From NCBI GenBank assembly GCA_009914755.4, contig CP086569.2, positions 7,520,001 through 7,584,000 of the forward strand: a stretch of DNA of 64,000 bases. Direction: 5' to 3'. This document shows positions 3,771 through 20,840 of this stretch, in pieces. The first letter of the stretch is position 1; each line of letters begins with the position of its first letter. Made by a program: the position numbers and the translations under genes. This DNA comes from the human T2T-CHM13v2.0 reference genome, Homo sapiens. The notes under the pieces are model-generated. The model had not been told where the DNA came from and made no database searches. It was given only the letters and a program-made list of their open reading frames with translations.

Positions 3771-6700
3771 CCAAGGAGTTGACACTTTGTGAGTAAGTGT
3801 TGTAAATTTCAGTGAGTTTGGTATAAATATGAATTACTGGACCTTACCTATTGACCTAAGCCTAGAAATGAAAGGCAAAATATCTCTTATTTGCTGAATC
3901 CCAGTATAAGTTTAACCATCATGACTTAAAACTGAAGTAAGGTATTTGTTATAGTCTCATTTGTGGGCAAAAAAATTGACCAAAGAATAACATCACCTAG
4001 GTGATGTGCCAAGCAACATGTCACAATGCCCTCTCTAGTTAGGATATAGAAATTAGAGTCACATTAACTTGATACTAGATGCACTAATATGACACAATCC
4101 CATATGTGGGGGAAAAAAAAACAGCCAAAAGATGAGAGCTAAAACACCTACATAGTGGGCCAAGGATATGTCAAAATGCCTCATGTGCCTCTCGTACAGT
4201 AATGAAAGTAACATTATCAGAGAATGGGCCTAGAATATGCCATAATTTTCTGTATATACAGGACTCAGGTGAAAGAGTAACATTATATGGGTGCTGGGCC
4301 CTGTGATAGACCAAAATTTCTGATTGTCAGCATGGTTTAGGACAAAAAGGAGTGTCAAATAACCTGAATGCTGGGCTCCGCAATATGCCACAATCTCTCC
4401 ATTGTAAAGACCAGGCAGAAGAAGAGTCACTACACTTAGGTCATGGGCTCAGCGATTTATCTCAGTGTCCCCAGTAGACAGGCCCAGGCAGGAAAACAGA
4501 GTCATATCACCTGGGTGCTTCTTTAGTAAAAATGCACCTGTGGGAAAGTATTTGAGTTAAAAAGTCTCAATACCTGGGTACTAGGCCCAGTGATATGACA
4601 CAGTCTCTTCATTTTGTAGATTGACACCTTTAACTTATAGCTGAGCATGTACATTAGAGTTAAAATCTCACTTGTGTGCTGGGTAAATGTATGGTACTCT
4701 GTACAACATCTGAGTGGTTTATAAAACATGCATGAGACTTCCAAACATTTCTGAGGCCTTCATGCTGGTATGGACCCACAATCTTACATGTTGCCCTAAA
4801 CCCAGGTTTTATAGTAAAAATATCTCCCAATATCAAGGTTAAGGAAGAATACCCATTATTTTGTATGTGGGCTGGGCACCAAAATGAGTCAGCATCCACC
4901 TTGTTGCCCAATCCGGGCATAAAAGTCACAATTTCAACTCTGTGCTGTATTCCCTTGCTGGATTTAGGACCTCAACAGTGCTCATTGTAAATGGGGGATG
5001 GTGGACAATTTTAACTTGACTTTTAACTGAGAGTCCCAATCTGAACATTTTGCTGGGCACTGTTAAGAAACTCTCTACCACCAAAGAGTTTACACACTAA
5101 GTTAGTGTTGTAAGCTTCTATGATCTTGGTACAAATATGCAATGCAGGACTTTATCTATTGCCCTAAACTTAACTATGCAAGGCAAAATACCTCCTATTC
5201 ATTGCATCCCAATAGAAGTTTGATCGTTATGCCTGTGAACTGAAGCAAGGTATATGTCATAATCCCATTTGTGGGCAAAAAAGTAGGCAGGAAGGTAACA
5301 TCACTTAGGTGCTGTGCCAAGCAATATGTCACAATGCCTTCTCTAGGCAAGGTATAAGAAATTGAGTCACATTAACTAGATGTTGGACCCAGCAATATGA
5401 AACCAATCCCACATGTGGAAAAAAAACCAGCCAATTTATGTGAGCCAAAACACCTACATAATGAGCACAAGATATATCAGAATACCTTCAGTGGCTCCAG
5501 CACAGCCAGGAGGGTCATATTAAGGTAGCTGTGTGCAGCAATAGGCAATATGCCATAATTTTGTATTTATGCAGAACCCAGGCAGAAGAGTAACATCTGG
5601 ATTATGCACCTTGCAATAGGTCAAAATACCTTTTTAGTGGACATGATTTGAAAACAGGAGAGCCACATATTCTAAGAGCTGAGCTCAGTAAGGTGTCAAA
5701 ATCCTTCTACCATGAATACACAGAGAGAAAAAGGGAGTCAAAACATGTCAAGGACTCAGAGATATGTCCCAATATCACCAGTAGGCAGAGTTCAGCCACA
5801 TGAGGAGAGTCATATCACATACGTGCTTCCCTAGGAATATGTCACAATTTAACATGTTTACAGAAACCAGGCAGAAAAGCCATATCTCTTGGGAACTTGG
5901 TTCTGAGATATTTCATAAGACTTTCTTATGACATCACCCAGGCCAGAGGGTTACATAACCTATGTGCAGGTTCTTTGCTTATATCACAATGCTCCTTGTG
6001 AGTAGGGCACAAGGAGGGAGCCAGTTTACCAAGGTGATAGGTCTACAGATATGTCAAAATGTTCTCTATGAAGCATAGGCCAGGCAAACGACTACCATAA
6101 CCTGTGTGCATGGCATAGAAATATGTCACTTTCTAGGTTGACAGGGCCCAAACTGTAGAGCCACATAATCTAGGTAGTAGGCCCAGAGTATGTCACAGAG
6201 CCTGCCATTGTGCATGGCTCTGGCAAAAGAGTATCCTCATCTGTGTGCCTGGCCTTGCAATATGTCACTATCATTCCTTAGTGTGGGCCCCATTCCAGAG
6301 AGAAGAGTTACATCACCTATGAAGTGGAAACAGAAATATGTCACAATAATTGTGGTGGAAATGGAGCAGGCAAGAATGTAACATCACCTGGGTGCTAGAT
6401 CCAGTGACATATCACAATTCCTACTGAGAGAAGTGCCCATCCAGGAGAGTCACACCACCCCACGGTTGGCCTAGGTAGCTATCACAAGCCATATATGGCC
6501 TGAAACAAGTCTGGACAGTCAAGTTACAGAGGTGCTTGGCAAAGATTTATATCACAATTACACTGTCAGAAAATTCAAAAGATAAGATTTACAATACCAT
6601 GCATGTCCTGTTTTCAAATGTGACTATTAATTTTATCCATGTGAGATCATGACCATTCTTACTGTCAACTGGGTATGCATACAAGACTCACAATTTTAAC

Positions 6701-18700: not shown

Positions 18701-20840
18701 TTTTTGTATTTTTAGTAGAGACGGGGTTTCACCATGTTAGCCTTGATCTCCTCACATTGTGATCTGCCCTCCTTGGCCTCCCAAAGTGCTGGGATTACAG
18801 GCCTGAGCCACCACACTCAGCCCAATATCCTAAGTTTTGAGAGTGACACTTTTAACTGTTAGCTTGGGGTCTATAACAAAGTCACACGGTCACATGTGTA
18901 CTGGGACACCAAATGACATTGTCTACAACATCCCAGGGCTTCATATGGCATGAATTATATTTGCAAACTTCTCTGAGGCCCATATGCTTGTATGAACTCA
19001 CAATCTTATATATTGCCTTAAATTCAGGTACAATAGTCAACATCTCTCATTTGGGCTACGTTCAGGAAGGAGAACCATTTTTATGCCTGTGAGGTGGGTC
19101 CAAAAATAAGTCACGATCGCACCTGAGGCCAGATGCACATGTGAGAGTCACAATTCCATTTTTGTACTGTTTTCTCATGTTAAACTTAGTAACTCAGCAG
19201 TATACTTTGTAATTGTGGGATGGTGACAATTTTACTTTCACCTGGGTGTGCAACTGAGAGTCAAAATTTTAACTTTTTGCTGGGCCTTGTTATGAAACTC
19301 TCTGTACCACCCATAAAGTTTATACAAAAATGAATTGTTTTTGTAAACTTCCATGAGCTTTGTACAAATATGCAACCCAGAATTTTTTCTATTGCCATAA
19401 GCCTAGTGATGAGAGGCAAAATATCTTCTATTGGCTGAATCCCAATATAGGTTTGATCATCATGCCTGTGAACTGAGCAAGGTATGTTCCATAATCCCAT
19501 CAGTGGGAAAAAAGTTAGAAAAAGAGTAACATCACTTAGGTGATGTGGCAATCAACATGTCAGAATGTTCCCTCTAGGCAGAATCTAGGAAGGAGGGTCA
19601 CATTAACTGGGTGCTGGAACCAGCAATATGTCAATTCCACATGTTGAAAAACATAAAAAAGTGATGAGAGCCAAAACACTTAAGAATAAGTCAAAGATAT
19701 TTCAAAATACTCTCTGTGGCTCTGGCATAGGCAGGACAGAACTGCAGTGAAAGAATTATATTACCTTGGTGCAGGTTTAACTTTTATGTCACAGTGATCT
19801 ATACAGGTGAGGCCCAAGTATTCAGTCACATCACCTAGGTGATAAGCCCAGAGATATGTCACAAGGACCTCCTTGAAATATAGCCCTGGCAAAATGTATC
19901 ATTACCTGTGTTCCTGATCTACCAATATGTCACCCCATCCTCTGTGCTCAGGGCACCTTCCAGAGAAAGGAGTTACATCACCTAAGAGGTGAACACAGTA
20001 ATATGTCACAATGATATCTGTGGGTGTGGTCCAGGCAAGAATATAACATCATCTGGATGTTAGATCCAGTGATATGTCATTATCCTTACTGAGAAAAGGG
20101 ACCAGGCAGGAGAATCACATCACCTAGACATTGGATCAGGATGAGGTAGAGATTATAATCCCATATATGTGCTAGAACCTGTCTGGAGAGTCAAATCACA
20201 CAGATGCTTGGCAAGATATGAATGACATTCACACTTGGAGGATATTGCAGAGATGAGATTTACAATAACATACATGTCCTGTTTTCATGTTTCACAGTAG
20301 GCTTCATATTTATGAGATGCAGACAATACTTCCTGTCAGCTGGATATGTATATGAGACTCCCAATTTCATCTTTTGGCTGGGTTTTGTTATGGCATTATC
20401 TGCACAAGCCAAAAGTTGTAAAATATCTCAGGCTGCTATAATCTTCTGTGAACTTTTTACCAGAAAGATATCTGAGACATCACTTGCATTGCTAAACCAA
20501 GTTACATGAGTCAAACTTACTCCTATTTCAGGGGTCCACATATGAGTCATTATCATGCCTGTGAGCTGTGCCTAGTTATTTGTCAAATGTTACTCTGTAG
20601 TAATGAAACAGGCATGACAGTCACATAACGTAAATGCTGAGACAGAAATGTTCCAATATTCTCTTTGTAGGCAGGTTCTTCACAGAAAAATCACATAACT
20701 TCGGGGGTCTATGCCCAACTCTACGGCACAGTGTCTCTTGTGGGTAATGTCAGGCAGAAGAAGAGAGTCATATTACCTAAATGATAGGCCCATAGATATG
20801 TTACAATGCCACCTGTTGAAAGGGCTAGGCAGGTATCATT
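3771..20840. repeat. Tandem satellite array 1: monomers of about 68-75 bp, probably beta satellite (BSR/Sau3A family), with higher-order repeat organisation
   Basis: Hundreds of head-to-tail monomers of the form ...gagtcacatcacctaggtgctgggcccagcaatatgtcacaatgccctctgtgggcagggcccaggcaggag.... Spacing of the atatgtcacaat motif is about 70-76 bp. Distinct diverged segments recur: A at about 4930, 7920 and 19150 (with partial copies at 3771 and 9900); B at about 6534, 9549, 12266, 15648 and 20206; C at about 13901 and 17281. The match to the beta satellite consensus comes from memory, not from a search. Confidence 0.75.
18533..18832 (-). mobile_element. Alu element inserted into a satellite monomer
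   Basis: Minus-strand Alu: a T-rich tail then gagacagagtcttgctctgtcacccaggctggagtgcagtggc... to ...ccaccacactcagcc. Flanking direct repeat caatatcct at 18522-18532 and 18833-18841, consistent with a target-site duplication. Confidence 0.9.

What the first reader, a model, noticed from the sequence alone, without database searches (positions are those of the whole stretch)
3771..20840. The satellite has a higher-order repeat of about 4.8 kb (A-B-C) in array 2, while array 1 carries deletion variants (A-B of about 3.0 kb and B-C of about 3.4 kb)
Within the 70-bp monomer arrays, three long diverged multi-monomer blocks recur in fixed order: A (caattccaactttgtgctgtat...ctaccaccaaag...aggcaaaatat...), B (...caaagatttatatcacaat.acactg.cagaaaattc...ctgtcagctgggt...) and C (...tgtcacaatttcaactgtg...gtttcacagtcccacacaagtcctgg...). 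Array 2 (53012-64000) is regular, with A to B of about 1.6 kb, B to C of about 1.64 kb and C to A of about 1.56 kb. Array 1 shows A at 4930, B at 6534, A at 7920, B at 9549, a partial A at 9900, B at 12266, C at 13901, B at 15648, C at 17281, A at 19150 and B at 20206, so individual copies lack C or A. This is a mosaic of structural variants of the higher-order repeat within 17 kb. It would be useful for reconstructing unequal-crossover history and for designing array-specific probes.
Basis: seen in the sequence. Interest (0 to 1): 0.55.

Follow-up and report, generated by a model that had tools for sequence, protein, structure and literature searches.

The report
Fossil beta-satellite-like higher-order repeat arrays
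Two old, decayed blocks of beta-satellite-like DNA in a primate genome keep a 4.8-kb higher-order repeat, and the first block has been rearranged by old duplications and deletions; the description is correct, but this is an ordinary, already known kind of sequence.

Summary
Both arrays (3756-20831 and 53013-64000+) consist of head-to-tail monomers of about 71 bp, all on the + strand. Array 2 has a regular 4.83-kb period.

The interpretation needs correcting in five ways.
1. This is a fossil, not a homogenised higher-order repeat (HOR). Neighbouring 4.8-kb copies are only 67-71% identical, GC is 41% and CpG observed/expected is 0.07-0.09.
2. Arrays 1 and 2 are paralogues, copy for copy, at 75-81% identity. 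A whole multi-unit array was duplicated after its units had already diverged.
3. The 3.0-kb "A-B" period is a younger local tandem duplication (77-81% identity). The 3.4-kb "B-C" period is a 1.41-kb deletion between two old units.
4. Blocks A, B and C are homologous to each other, so the 4.8-kb unit is probably three copies of an older unit of roughly 1.2-1.9 kb.
5. The monomer resembles beta satellite (BSR), but it lacks the Sau3AI site, the 68-bp length and the 52-53% GC content.

A decayed ZNF91-type zinc-finger fragment lies between the arrays. That fits the published beta-satellite/ZNF cluster at 19p12, but I could not verify the locus. Interest is low.

The parts
3756..20831 (+). Array 1: monomers of about 71 bp, beta-satellite-like, a mosaic of 4.8-kb-unit fragments. 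Unit coordinates (u1 = window 53027) by segment: 3756-4522 = u796-1565; 4526-7916 = u250-3733; 7912-9934 = u643-2650; 9958-10812 = u773-1630; 10780-11104 = u4659-4826 plus u2-151; 11105-14472 = u1107-4464; 14473-18544 = u1047-4826 plus u5-348; 18800-19739 = u307-1242; 19805-20831 = u1873-2893.
   Evidence: nhmmer search with array-2 copy 1 as query; blastn; monomer HMM hits.
4526..7916 (+). Array-1 counterpart (paralogue) of array-2 copy 1 (clade I), 73-83% identical in sliding windows.
7912..9934 (+). Local tandem duplicate of the clade-I segment at an offset of about 2.99 kb. It is 71-81% identical to 4526-7916 in sliding windows (72-80% in the regional tables) and 76.9% by blastn.
9958..11104 (+). 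Small mosaic: a further partial clade-I copy (u773-1630), then a piece of the unit boundary (u4659 to u151) that is 75% identical to array 2 at 57706-58004. A (TATATTATATGT)n microsatellite at 9920-9961 lies on the junction before it.
11105..14472 (+). Old unit lacking A (u1107-4464), about 70% identical to every other copy. The exception is its last 470 bp or so (u4000-4464), which is 78-81% identical to array-2 copy 1.
14473..19739 (+). Counterpart of array-2 copies 2 and 3 (58922-63877), 72-82% identical and collinear apart from the Alu.
18532..18822 (-). AluY-like retroposon inserted into array 1. The target-site duplication CAATATCCTA lies at 18522-18531 and 18823-18832. The Alu is absent from the matching place in array 2.
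   Evidence: the AluY consensus was recalled from memory
19805..20831 (+). Last fragment of array 1 (u1873-2893), following a 630-bp skip in unit coordinates. It ends inside a monomer, against an old antisense L1.
53013..64000 (+). Array 2: regular 4.83-kb period. Copy 1 is 53027-57854, copy 2 is 57856-62640 and copy 3 is 62649-63985 and beyond. The array runs off the end of the window.
53329..54009 (+). Block A in the reference unit, where the monomer HMM finds nothing. It contains an internal duplication of about 378 bp. Other copies: 4580-5251, 7816-8257 (partial), 9959-10165 (partial), 3757-3943 (partial), 18821-19483, 58159-58825 and 62936-63614.
55220..55667 (+). Block B in the reference unit, homologous to A and C. 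Other copies: 6463-6908, 9475-9921, 12192-12634, 15581-16025, 20140-20576 and 60054-60489.
56972..57588 (+). Block C in the reference unit, homologous to A and B. Other copies: 13942-14513, 17323-17939 and 61731-62378.

Best explanation
These are two paralogous, non-coding relics of one ancient tandem array of beta-satellite-related monomers of about 71 bp. They have no detectable function of their own. The pattern is a record of amplification and rearrangement, read here in five steps.

1. Inferred: a monomeric array acquired a degenerate block of about 300-450 bp, and this larger unit of roughly 1.2-1.9 kb was amplified.

2. Three such sub-units (A, B, C) were amplified together as a 4.83-kb unit of about 67 monomer lengths, giving at least 3-4 head-to-tail copies. 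The copies are shown; that they arose in a single burst is inferred from their roughly equal divergence.

3. Homogenisation stopped and the copies drifted to about 70% identity.

4. The whole multi-unit array was duplicated, giving arrays 1 and 2. This is shown by the copy-for-copy correspondence at 75-81% identity. Most likely it happened as part of a satellite-plus-zinc-finger-gene cassette duplication of the kind described for 19p12; that link is inferred.

5. At about that time and later, array 1 underwent unequal exchanges between misaligned repeats: tandem duplications of clade-I sequence at offsets of 1.3 and 3.0 kb, deletions of 1.41 and 0.63 kb, and then an AluY insertion.

Array 2 kept the ancestral regular order.
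For: 1. Monomers are confined to the two arrays and all lie on one strand, with a 71-bp mode.

2. The 4.83-kb period aligns over 6.3 kb, far beyond the chunk-shuffle controls.

4. Identity tables give clade I (array-2 copy 1, 4526-7916, 7912-9934, and more loosely 9958-10812 and 3756-4522), clade II (array-2 copy 2 and 14473-18199) and clade III (array-2 copy 3 and 18800-19739). Within the first three members of clade I and within clades II and III identity is about 72-81% (68-78% for the two loosely attached clade-I fragments), against about 63-74% (mostly 65-71%) between clades.

5. Blocks A, B and C hit each other with E values of about 1e-20 to 3e-6 and hit almost nothing else. The strongest internal offsets of the unit consensus are 1.67-1.71, 1.94 and 1.23 kb.

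6. Three of the four junctions that can be tested keep the monomer register within 6 bp, as expected for homologous unequal exchange.

7. Signs of decay: GC 41% and CpG observed/expected 0.07-0.09.

8. The Alu has a target-site duplication and is present only in array 1.

9. There is no long ORF in the inter-array region apart from one 123-aa L1 remnant, there is no inverted satellite copy, and the only gene-like piece between the arrays is a decayed zinc-finger fragment.

10. The literature reports blocks of beta satellite interspersed in the 19p12 KZNF cluster (PMC3018141). It also reports HORs and embedded foreign fragments in beta satellite (bioRxiv 10.1101/2021.07.12.452052).
Against: 1. 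Only about 2.3 units of array 2 lie inside the window. A sustained HOR amplification therefore cannot be told from a few discrete tandem duplications.

2. Outside blocks A, B and C, the monomeric stretches of the unit consensus cross-align at 67-68% at many offsets. The three-sub-unit model rests mainly on the blocks and on a few long in-register profile hits.

3. Segment 11105-14472 is a mosaic that no simple history explains. It is about 70% identical to everything, but 78-81% identical to array-2 copy 1 in its last 470 bp and 73-76% identical to copy 2 around u3400-3800.

4. The sequences flanking the two arrays are not detectably homologous. No cassette larger than the array itself is demonstrated inside this window.

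5. The chromosomal location and the species could not be checked with these tools.
Confidence: 0.8

Rival explanations
1. This is a currently homogenising HOR satellite, and its structural variants in array 1 reflect recent or ongoing unequal crossing-over. That is the sense in which the reader's text could be read, and it would make the arrays useful for array-specific probes and for studying polymorphism.
For: The period in array 2 is regular and in phase. Several junctions keep the monomer register.
Against: Copies are only 67-81% identical. CpG is almost gone. An AluY-like element whose non-CpG divergence from a remembered consensus is about 3% sits inside the array and is much younger than every duplication. 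TRF cannot see the monomers at all.
Confidence: 0.03
2. This was never a satellite HOR. A monomeric array that was already old and heterogeneous was copied a few times by ordinary tandem or segmental duplications of 4.8, 3.0 and 1.3 kb, and the apparent hierarchy is just a small number of such events.
For: At most four unit lineages are visible. There is no sign that copies were ever homogenised. The local duplications in array 1 have various sizes.
Against: Units I, II, III and IV are about equally distant from each other (mostly 65-71%), as expected from one burst. The units abut exactly head to tail, with 0-8 bp between alignments. A nested periodicity is indicated by the homologous A, B and C blocks.
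Confidence: 0.15
3. Blocks A, B and C are not decayed monomers. They are a captured foreign fragment, for example a piece of an ancient transposon, which would make the ancestral unit a composite satellite. This is a sub-hypothesis that is compatible with the main explanation.
For: The cores of the blocks (about u650-980, u2300-2577 and u4260-4560) give no monomer-HMM signal even at E = 50 on the denoised consensus. Beta satellite is reported to include ancient transposon fragments in its units.
Against: The edges of the blocks carry weak monomer hits in phase with the neighbouring monomers, for example at consensus positions 3993, 4066, 4139 and 4214. No transposon library could be searched here.
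Confidence: 0.3
4. The long-range lines are chance or low-complexity matches among similar monomers.
For: Any two monomers are about 58% identical, and many weak cross-hits exist.
Against: Collinear alignments of 2-6 kb have E = 0. Chunk-order shuffles give at most 154 bits, against 1427-1881 observed.
Confidence: 0.01

Closest known systems
Beta satellite (BSR/Beta, Sau3A family) of hominoid genomes
   Same: Both are head-to-tail arrays of a monomer of about 70 bp in one orientation. The 71-bp consensus here is GATATGTCACAATGCCCTCTGTGGGCAGGACCCAGGCAGAAGAGTCACATCACCTGGGTGCTGGGTCCAGC. It carries the published BSR primer motifs at the right relative places: 4qAe-f matches at 11 of 13 bases at consensus positions 15-28, and the first 10 nt of the reverse complement of 4qAe-r match exactly at positions 49-59. 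4qAe-f matches five times with at most 3 mismatches, only inside the arrays and only on the + strand, against 0.14 expected. An HOR organisation is known for beta satellite.
   Different: The modal monomer is 71 bp, not 67-69 bp. GC is 41%, not 52-53%. CpG is nearly absent rather than dense. A Sau3AI (GATC) site occurs in only about 1 monomer in 9. HOR copies are 67-81% identical, rather than the high identities usual in live arrays (the comparison value is from general knowledge).
Beta-satellite blocks interspersed in the KRAB zinc-finger gene cluster at human 19p12 (Eichler et al. 1998, Genome Res 8:791)
   Same: Satellite blocks of 10-20 kb or more lie next to ZNF91-type zinc-finger sequence: here a decayed 5-finger fragment with KCEECGKAF and HKIIH motifs at about 49.4-49.9 kb. 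[quoted passage not shown] Primers for rs8105767 in ZNF208 at 19p12 have the same monomer sequence pattern. From my memory of the 1998 abstract, those blocks have a higher-order structure and an age of about 50 Myr.
   Different: I could not read the 1998 paper, so whether a 4.8-kb unit was reported there is unknown. As I recall, that paper describes inverted blocks flanking the genes, whereas the two blocks here are in direct orientation. The ZNF208 SNP sites themselves are not in this window. The location is unverified.
Structural variants of alpha-satellite HORs produced by unequal crossing-over
   Same: The mechanism is the same: misaligned exchange between paralogous monomers gives units that lack or repeat a run of monomers while keeping the monomer register.
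   Different: The monomer family is different (171 bp). Those arrays are homogenised and polymorphic in living populations (general knowledge), whereas this array is a fossil.
Human macrosatellites with units of 3-5 kb (D4Z4, DXZ4, RS447)
   Same: The unit size is in the kilobase range and the units are arranged in tandem (PMC3018141, for macrosatellites in general).
   Different: Macrosatellite units are near-identical, often carry genes and vary in copy number. Here the unit is itself built of monomers of about 71 bp, contains no ORF, and its copies are about 30% diverged.

Membership tests
Beta satellite (BSR/Beta, Sau3A family) | Monomer of 67-69 bp repeated head to tail | tested here: not met
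   The arrangement is head to tail on a single strand. However, the modal spacing is 71 bp, with a range of 68-78 bp. This is close but not the canonical length.
Beta satellite (BSR/Beta, Sau3A family) | Sequence similarity of the monomer to the BSR consensus | tested here: inconclusive
   No reference BSR sequence is held by the tools. Two published BSR primers align to the consensus in the right order (11 of 13 bases, and 10 of 10). One of them is enriched 35-fold inside the arrays. The other has no full-length match with at most 3 mismatches. Identity to a BSR monomer recalled from memory is about 84%. That is a lead, not a test.
Beta satellite (BSR/Beta, Sau3A family) | One Sau3AI (GATC) site per monomer | tested here: not met
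   There are 0.10-0.12 GATC sites per 71 bp, below even the expectation from base composition.
Beta satellite (BSR/Beta, Sau3A family) | G+C of about 52-53% with dense CpG | tested here: not met
   GC is 41% and CpG observed/expected is 0.07-0.09. This is compatible with long decay of a sequence that was once richer in GC, but the feature as stated is absent.
Higher-order repeat (HOR) satellite array | A multi-monomer unit repeated in tandem, with unit-to-unit identity clearly above monomer-to-monomer identity | tested here: met
   Unit-to-unit identity is 67-71% over 4.8-6.3 kb, against 58% between monomers.
Higher-order repeat (HOR) satellite array | Near-identity of units (typically above 95%), indicating ongoing homogenisation | tested here: not met
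   The maximum in any sliding window is 83%. The array is a relic of an HOR.
19p12 ZNF-cluster beta-satellite blocks | Location in the 19p12 KRAB-ZNF cluster, next to ZNF91-family genes | not testable with these tools
   The only support is circumstantial: a decayed ZNF91-type finger fragment, no KRAB exon in the window, and monomers like those at a ZNF208 SNP. No human or primate genome can be searched here.
19p12 ZNF-cluster beta-satellite blocks | Inverted pairs of satellite blocks flanking the gene (as I recall from the abstract of Eichler 1998) | tested here: not met
   Both arrays are on the + strand. The only inverted matches in the window are between Alu elements. The window may simply not span such a pair.

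The most novel reading that the evidence does not exclude
The arrays may preserve a pre-hominoid, ancestral form of beta satellite: a 71-bp monomer, no Sau3AI site, and nested periods of about 1.6 kb and 4.8 kb. In this reading its HOR burst (JC distance of about 0.40 between units) and its array duplication (about 0.26) are far older than the ape-specific origin of about 25 Myr usually given for canonical beta satellite (Cardone et al. 2004, cited from memory). The locus would then be the source or oldest surviving relative of the family, and the copy-for-copy paralogy between blocks would be a ready-made clock for ordering the duplications of the zinc-finger cluster.
Probability: 0.2. Interest if true: 0.4.

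Novelty: already known. Interest (0 to 1): 0.15.

Why it matters
It matters little beyond bookkeeping. It shows that a careful reading by eye can recover a real but faint (about 70% identity) kilobase-scale periodicity that TRF misses.

The copy-for-copy correspondence between the two blocks could serve as a marker for ordering duplications in a satellite/zinc-finger cluster, and for dating when this satellite stopped being homogenised. No new mechanism or element is involved.

Probe design is possible because the copies differ by 20-30%, but that is for the trivial reason that the copies are now effectively unique sequence.

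Tried and rejected
1. TRF at score 30-200 did not detect the monomer array, so I used k-mer spacing and an iterated nhmmer profile instead.

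2. I tried to read Eichler 1998, Hamilton 2006, Waye and Willard 1989 and the published version of Altemose 2022. None is held. Only citing statements and the Altemose preprint could be used.

3. I searched the paper library for BSR consensus fragments recalled from memory. Two searches found only a SNP primer and one pair of ChIP primers. The supplements of two papers are not held.

4. I tested whether the window is the ZNF208 locus by looking for all 15 published primers for that locus. There was no exact or near-exact match.

5. I looked for KRAB exons and found none.

6. I looked for inverted satellite copies, expecting the 'symmetrical inverted blocks' I recalled for 19p12, and found none.

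7. I tested whether the two arrays are one array split by insertions. I rejected this because array 1 ends at u2893 and array 2 starts at about u1. In addition, the L1 fragments at the two edges are different pieces in opposite orientation.

8. I tried to show the 1.6-kb sub-period in the monomeric parts of the unit consensus by blastn. The in-register hit was not clearly better than out-of-register hits, so the sub-unit claim rests on the A/B/C blocks and the profile hits.

9. I ran no further search on the zinc-finger fragment. A decayed 115-aa C2H2 stretch would not pin down a locus.

Full report
**What the window is.** The window is primate DNA. It carries Alu elements, including an AluY-like copy with a target-site duplication, as well as L1 fragments and an ERV with LTRs. 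There are no reverse-strand matches other than Alu to Alu. Between the two satellite blocks the only gene-like sequence is a decayed five-finger C2H2 fragment on the minus strand at about 49.4-49.9 kb. It carries KCEECGKAF and HKIIH motifs and contains stop codons. No KRAB exon is present.

**The monomers.** 7-mer spacing in 3771-20840 and 53012-64000 peaks at 71 bp, with further peaks at 146-147 and about 292-300 bp. The rest of the window shows nothing comparable. A profile built iteratively from one TRF seed finds 216 monomers. All are on the + strand and all lie inside 3.7-20.8 kb or 53.0-64 kb. Their spacing is 68-78 bp with a mode of 71 bp. TRF does not report the array, because neighbouring monomers are too diverged. 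The mean identity between any two monomers is 58%.

The 71-bp consensus is GATATGTCACAATGCCCTCTGTGGGCAGGACCCAGGCAGAAGAGTCACATCACCTGGGTGCTGGGTCCAGC.

**The higher-order period.** Array 2 aligns with itself over 6311 bp at an offset of 4828 bp (67.7% identity), and again at 9619 bp. Using 53027-57854 as the query, nhmmer returns 57856-62640 (unit positions 2-4826) and 62649-63985 (positions 7-1367). The window therefore holds about 2.3 regular head-to-tail units.

Array 1 shows lines at 2991 bp (76.9%) and 3382 bp (70.8%). Shuffling the order of 143-bp chunks destroys all of this: the best HSP is then at most 121-154 bits, against 1427-1881 observed. The quoted A, B and C motifs are at or near the stated positions, and all correspond to the same three unit coordinates: about u680, u2290 and u3900.

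**Map of array 1 in unit coordinates (u1 = window 53027).**
- 3756-4522 = u796-1565
- 4526-7916 = u250-3733
- 7912-9934 = u643-2650
- 9958-10812 = u773-1630
- 10780-11104 = u4659-4826 plus u2-151
- 11105-14472 = u1107-4464
- 14473-18544 = u1047-4826 plus u5-348
- Alu
- 18800-19739 = u307-1242
- 19805-20831 = u1873-2893

Four junctions have recognisable monomers on both sides, and three of those keep the monomer register within 6 bp. That fits unequal homologous exchange better than random breakage.

**Who is related to whom.** Identity tables and sliding windows give three pairings across the arrays:
- Array-2 copy 1 pairs with 4526-7916 (73-83%).
- Array-2 copy 2 pairs with 14473-18199 (72-82%).
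- Array-2 copy 3 pairs with 18800-19739 (73-76%).

Different units are only about 63-74% (mostly 65-71%) alike, whether within an array or between arrays. So an array that already held several diverged units was duplicated as a whole.

The 3.0-kb 'A-B' pair (4526-7916 and 7912-9934) is 71-81% identical in sliding windows and mostly above 76%, close to the inter-array level. It is a later local tandem duplication of u643-3733, not an old HOR variant. Further partial clade-I copies at 3756-4522 and 9958-10812 show that this part of array 1 was duplicated repeatedly.

The 3.4-kb 'B-C' spacing is a 1.41-kb skip between two old units that are 66-72% identical. Segment 11105-14472 is about 70% identical to everything except its last 470 bp or so, which match array-2 copy 1 at 78-81%. 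I cannot explain this mosaic with a simple history.

**A deeper level.** The monomer profile fails in three blocks per unit: u316-981, u2287-2651 and u3993-4579 on the denoised consensus.

The strongest internal hits of the unit consensus lie at offsets of 1.67-1.71, 1.94 and 1.23 kb, which add up to one unit. Block A also contains an internal duplication of about 378 bp. The 4.8-kb unit is therefore probably three copies of an older unit of roughly 1.2-1.9 kb.

This rests mostly on the blocks. The plain monomer stretches cross-align at 67-68% at many offsets. Whether the block cores are extremely decayed monomers or a captured foreign fragment is open: weak in-phase monomer hits exist at their edges but not in their cores.

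**State of decay and rough age.** GC is 41% and CpG observed/expected is 0.07-0.09. GATC occurs in only about 1 monomer in 9. Jukes-Cantor distances are about 0.40 between units and about 0.26 between paired units of the two arrays.

The AluY-like insert is 91% identical to an AluY consensus recalled from memory, and 16 of its 23 mismatches are CpG-type. It is clearly younger than every duplication.

An ERV between the arrays has LTRs that are 80% identical. If they belong to one provirus, it is about as old as the array duplication. All of this points to tens of millions of years, but I did not calibrate a rate and give no firm date.

**Comparison with known families.** Beta satellite is defined by a unit of 67-69 bp with a Sau3AI site and 52-53% GC with dense CpG. 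It is known to form HORs and to embed old transposon fragments. Two published BSR primers fit the consensus here in the right order, and one is enriched 35-fold in the arrays. The length, the Sau3AI site and the GC content are not met. I therefore call it beta-satellite-related and decayed, not a canonical member.

[quoted passage not shown] A ZNF208 SNP assay uses primers with the same monomer pattern. Together with the ZNF91-type finger fragment, this makes 19p12 the most likely origin. The exact ZNF208 sites are absent, and no primate genome can be searched with these tools. I put the probability of that location at about 0.6.

**Verdict.** It is the relic of a higher-order satellite array, later duplicated and locally rearranged. 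This is a known kind of sequence, produced by known mechanisms, with no sign of function. Interest is low.

Noticed in passing
window 22018-28628 (LTRs at 22018-22799 and 27854-28628); also 1521-1916: There is an ERV-like element. Two LTR copies of about 780 bp lie in the same orientation and are 80.4% identical. Between them, on the minus strand, are reverse-transcriptase-like ORFs (for example 24063-24266, containing [12 protein letters not shown]). A third, partial LTR copy lies at 1521-1916. If the two LTRs belong to one provirus, their divergence is about the same as that between arrays 1 and 2, so they could serve as a local clock. The target-site duplication is unclear.
   Followed up: partly
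window ~49400-49900, minus strand: A decayed fragment of five C2H2 zinc fingers of ZNF91 type ([14 protein letters not shown]) contains stop codons and is flanked by L1 sequence. No KRAB exon was found anywhere in the window.
   Followed up: partly
window 20832-21600 and 52700-53012: Both array edges abut old L1 ORF2 fragments that lack their 3' parts exactly at the array boundary. The fragment at array 1's right edge is antisense and is cut at about ORF2 residue 1100. The fragment at array 2's left edge is sense and is cut at about residue 870. The residue positions were judged against an ORF2p sequence recalled from memory. 3' truncation is not what L1 insertion produces, so these are rearrangement breakpoints.
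   Followed up: partly
window 18532-18822, minus strand: An AluY-like element lies inside array 1 with a perfect 10-bp target-site duplication, CAATATCCTA (18522-18531 and 18823-18832). The homologous place in array 2 has no Alu.
   Followed up: yes
window 9920-9961: A (TATATTATATGT)n microsatellite sits exactly on the array-1 junction where the unit coordinate jumps from u2650 to u773.
   Followed up: no
window 61926-61975: A near-perfect (96%) 17-bp repeat of 2.9 copies (GATGAGTGTCAAGTGGA) lies inside block C of array-2 copy 2. It is much younger than its surroundings.
   Followed up: no
window 25818-26178 and 29466-29631: There is a 184-bp tandem duplication (2 copies, 83% identity) inside the ERV region, and a 44/86-bp tandem repeat (79-83% identity) next to an Alu. 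Neither is related to the satellite.
   Followed up: no
window 42327-42698, plus strand: An uninterrupted 123-aa ORF corresponds to the C-terminal end of L1 ORF2. It belongs to a younger L1 copy than those at the array edges.
   Followed up: no
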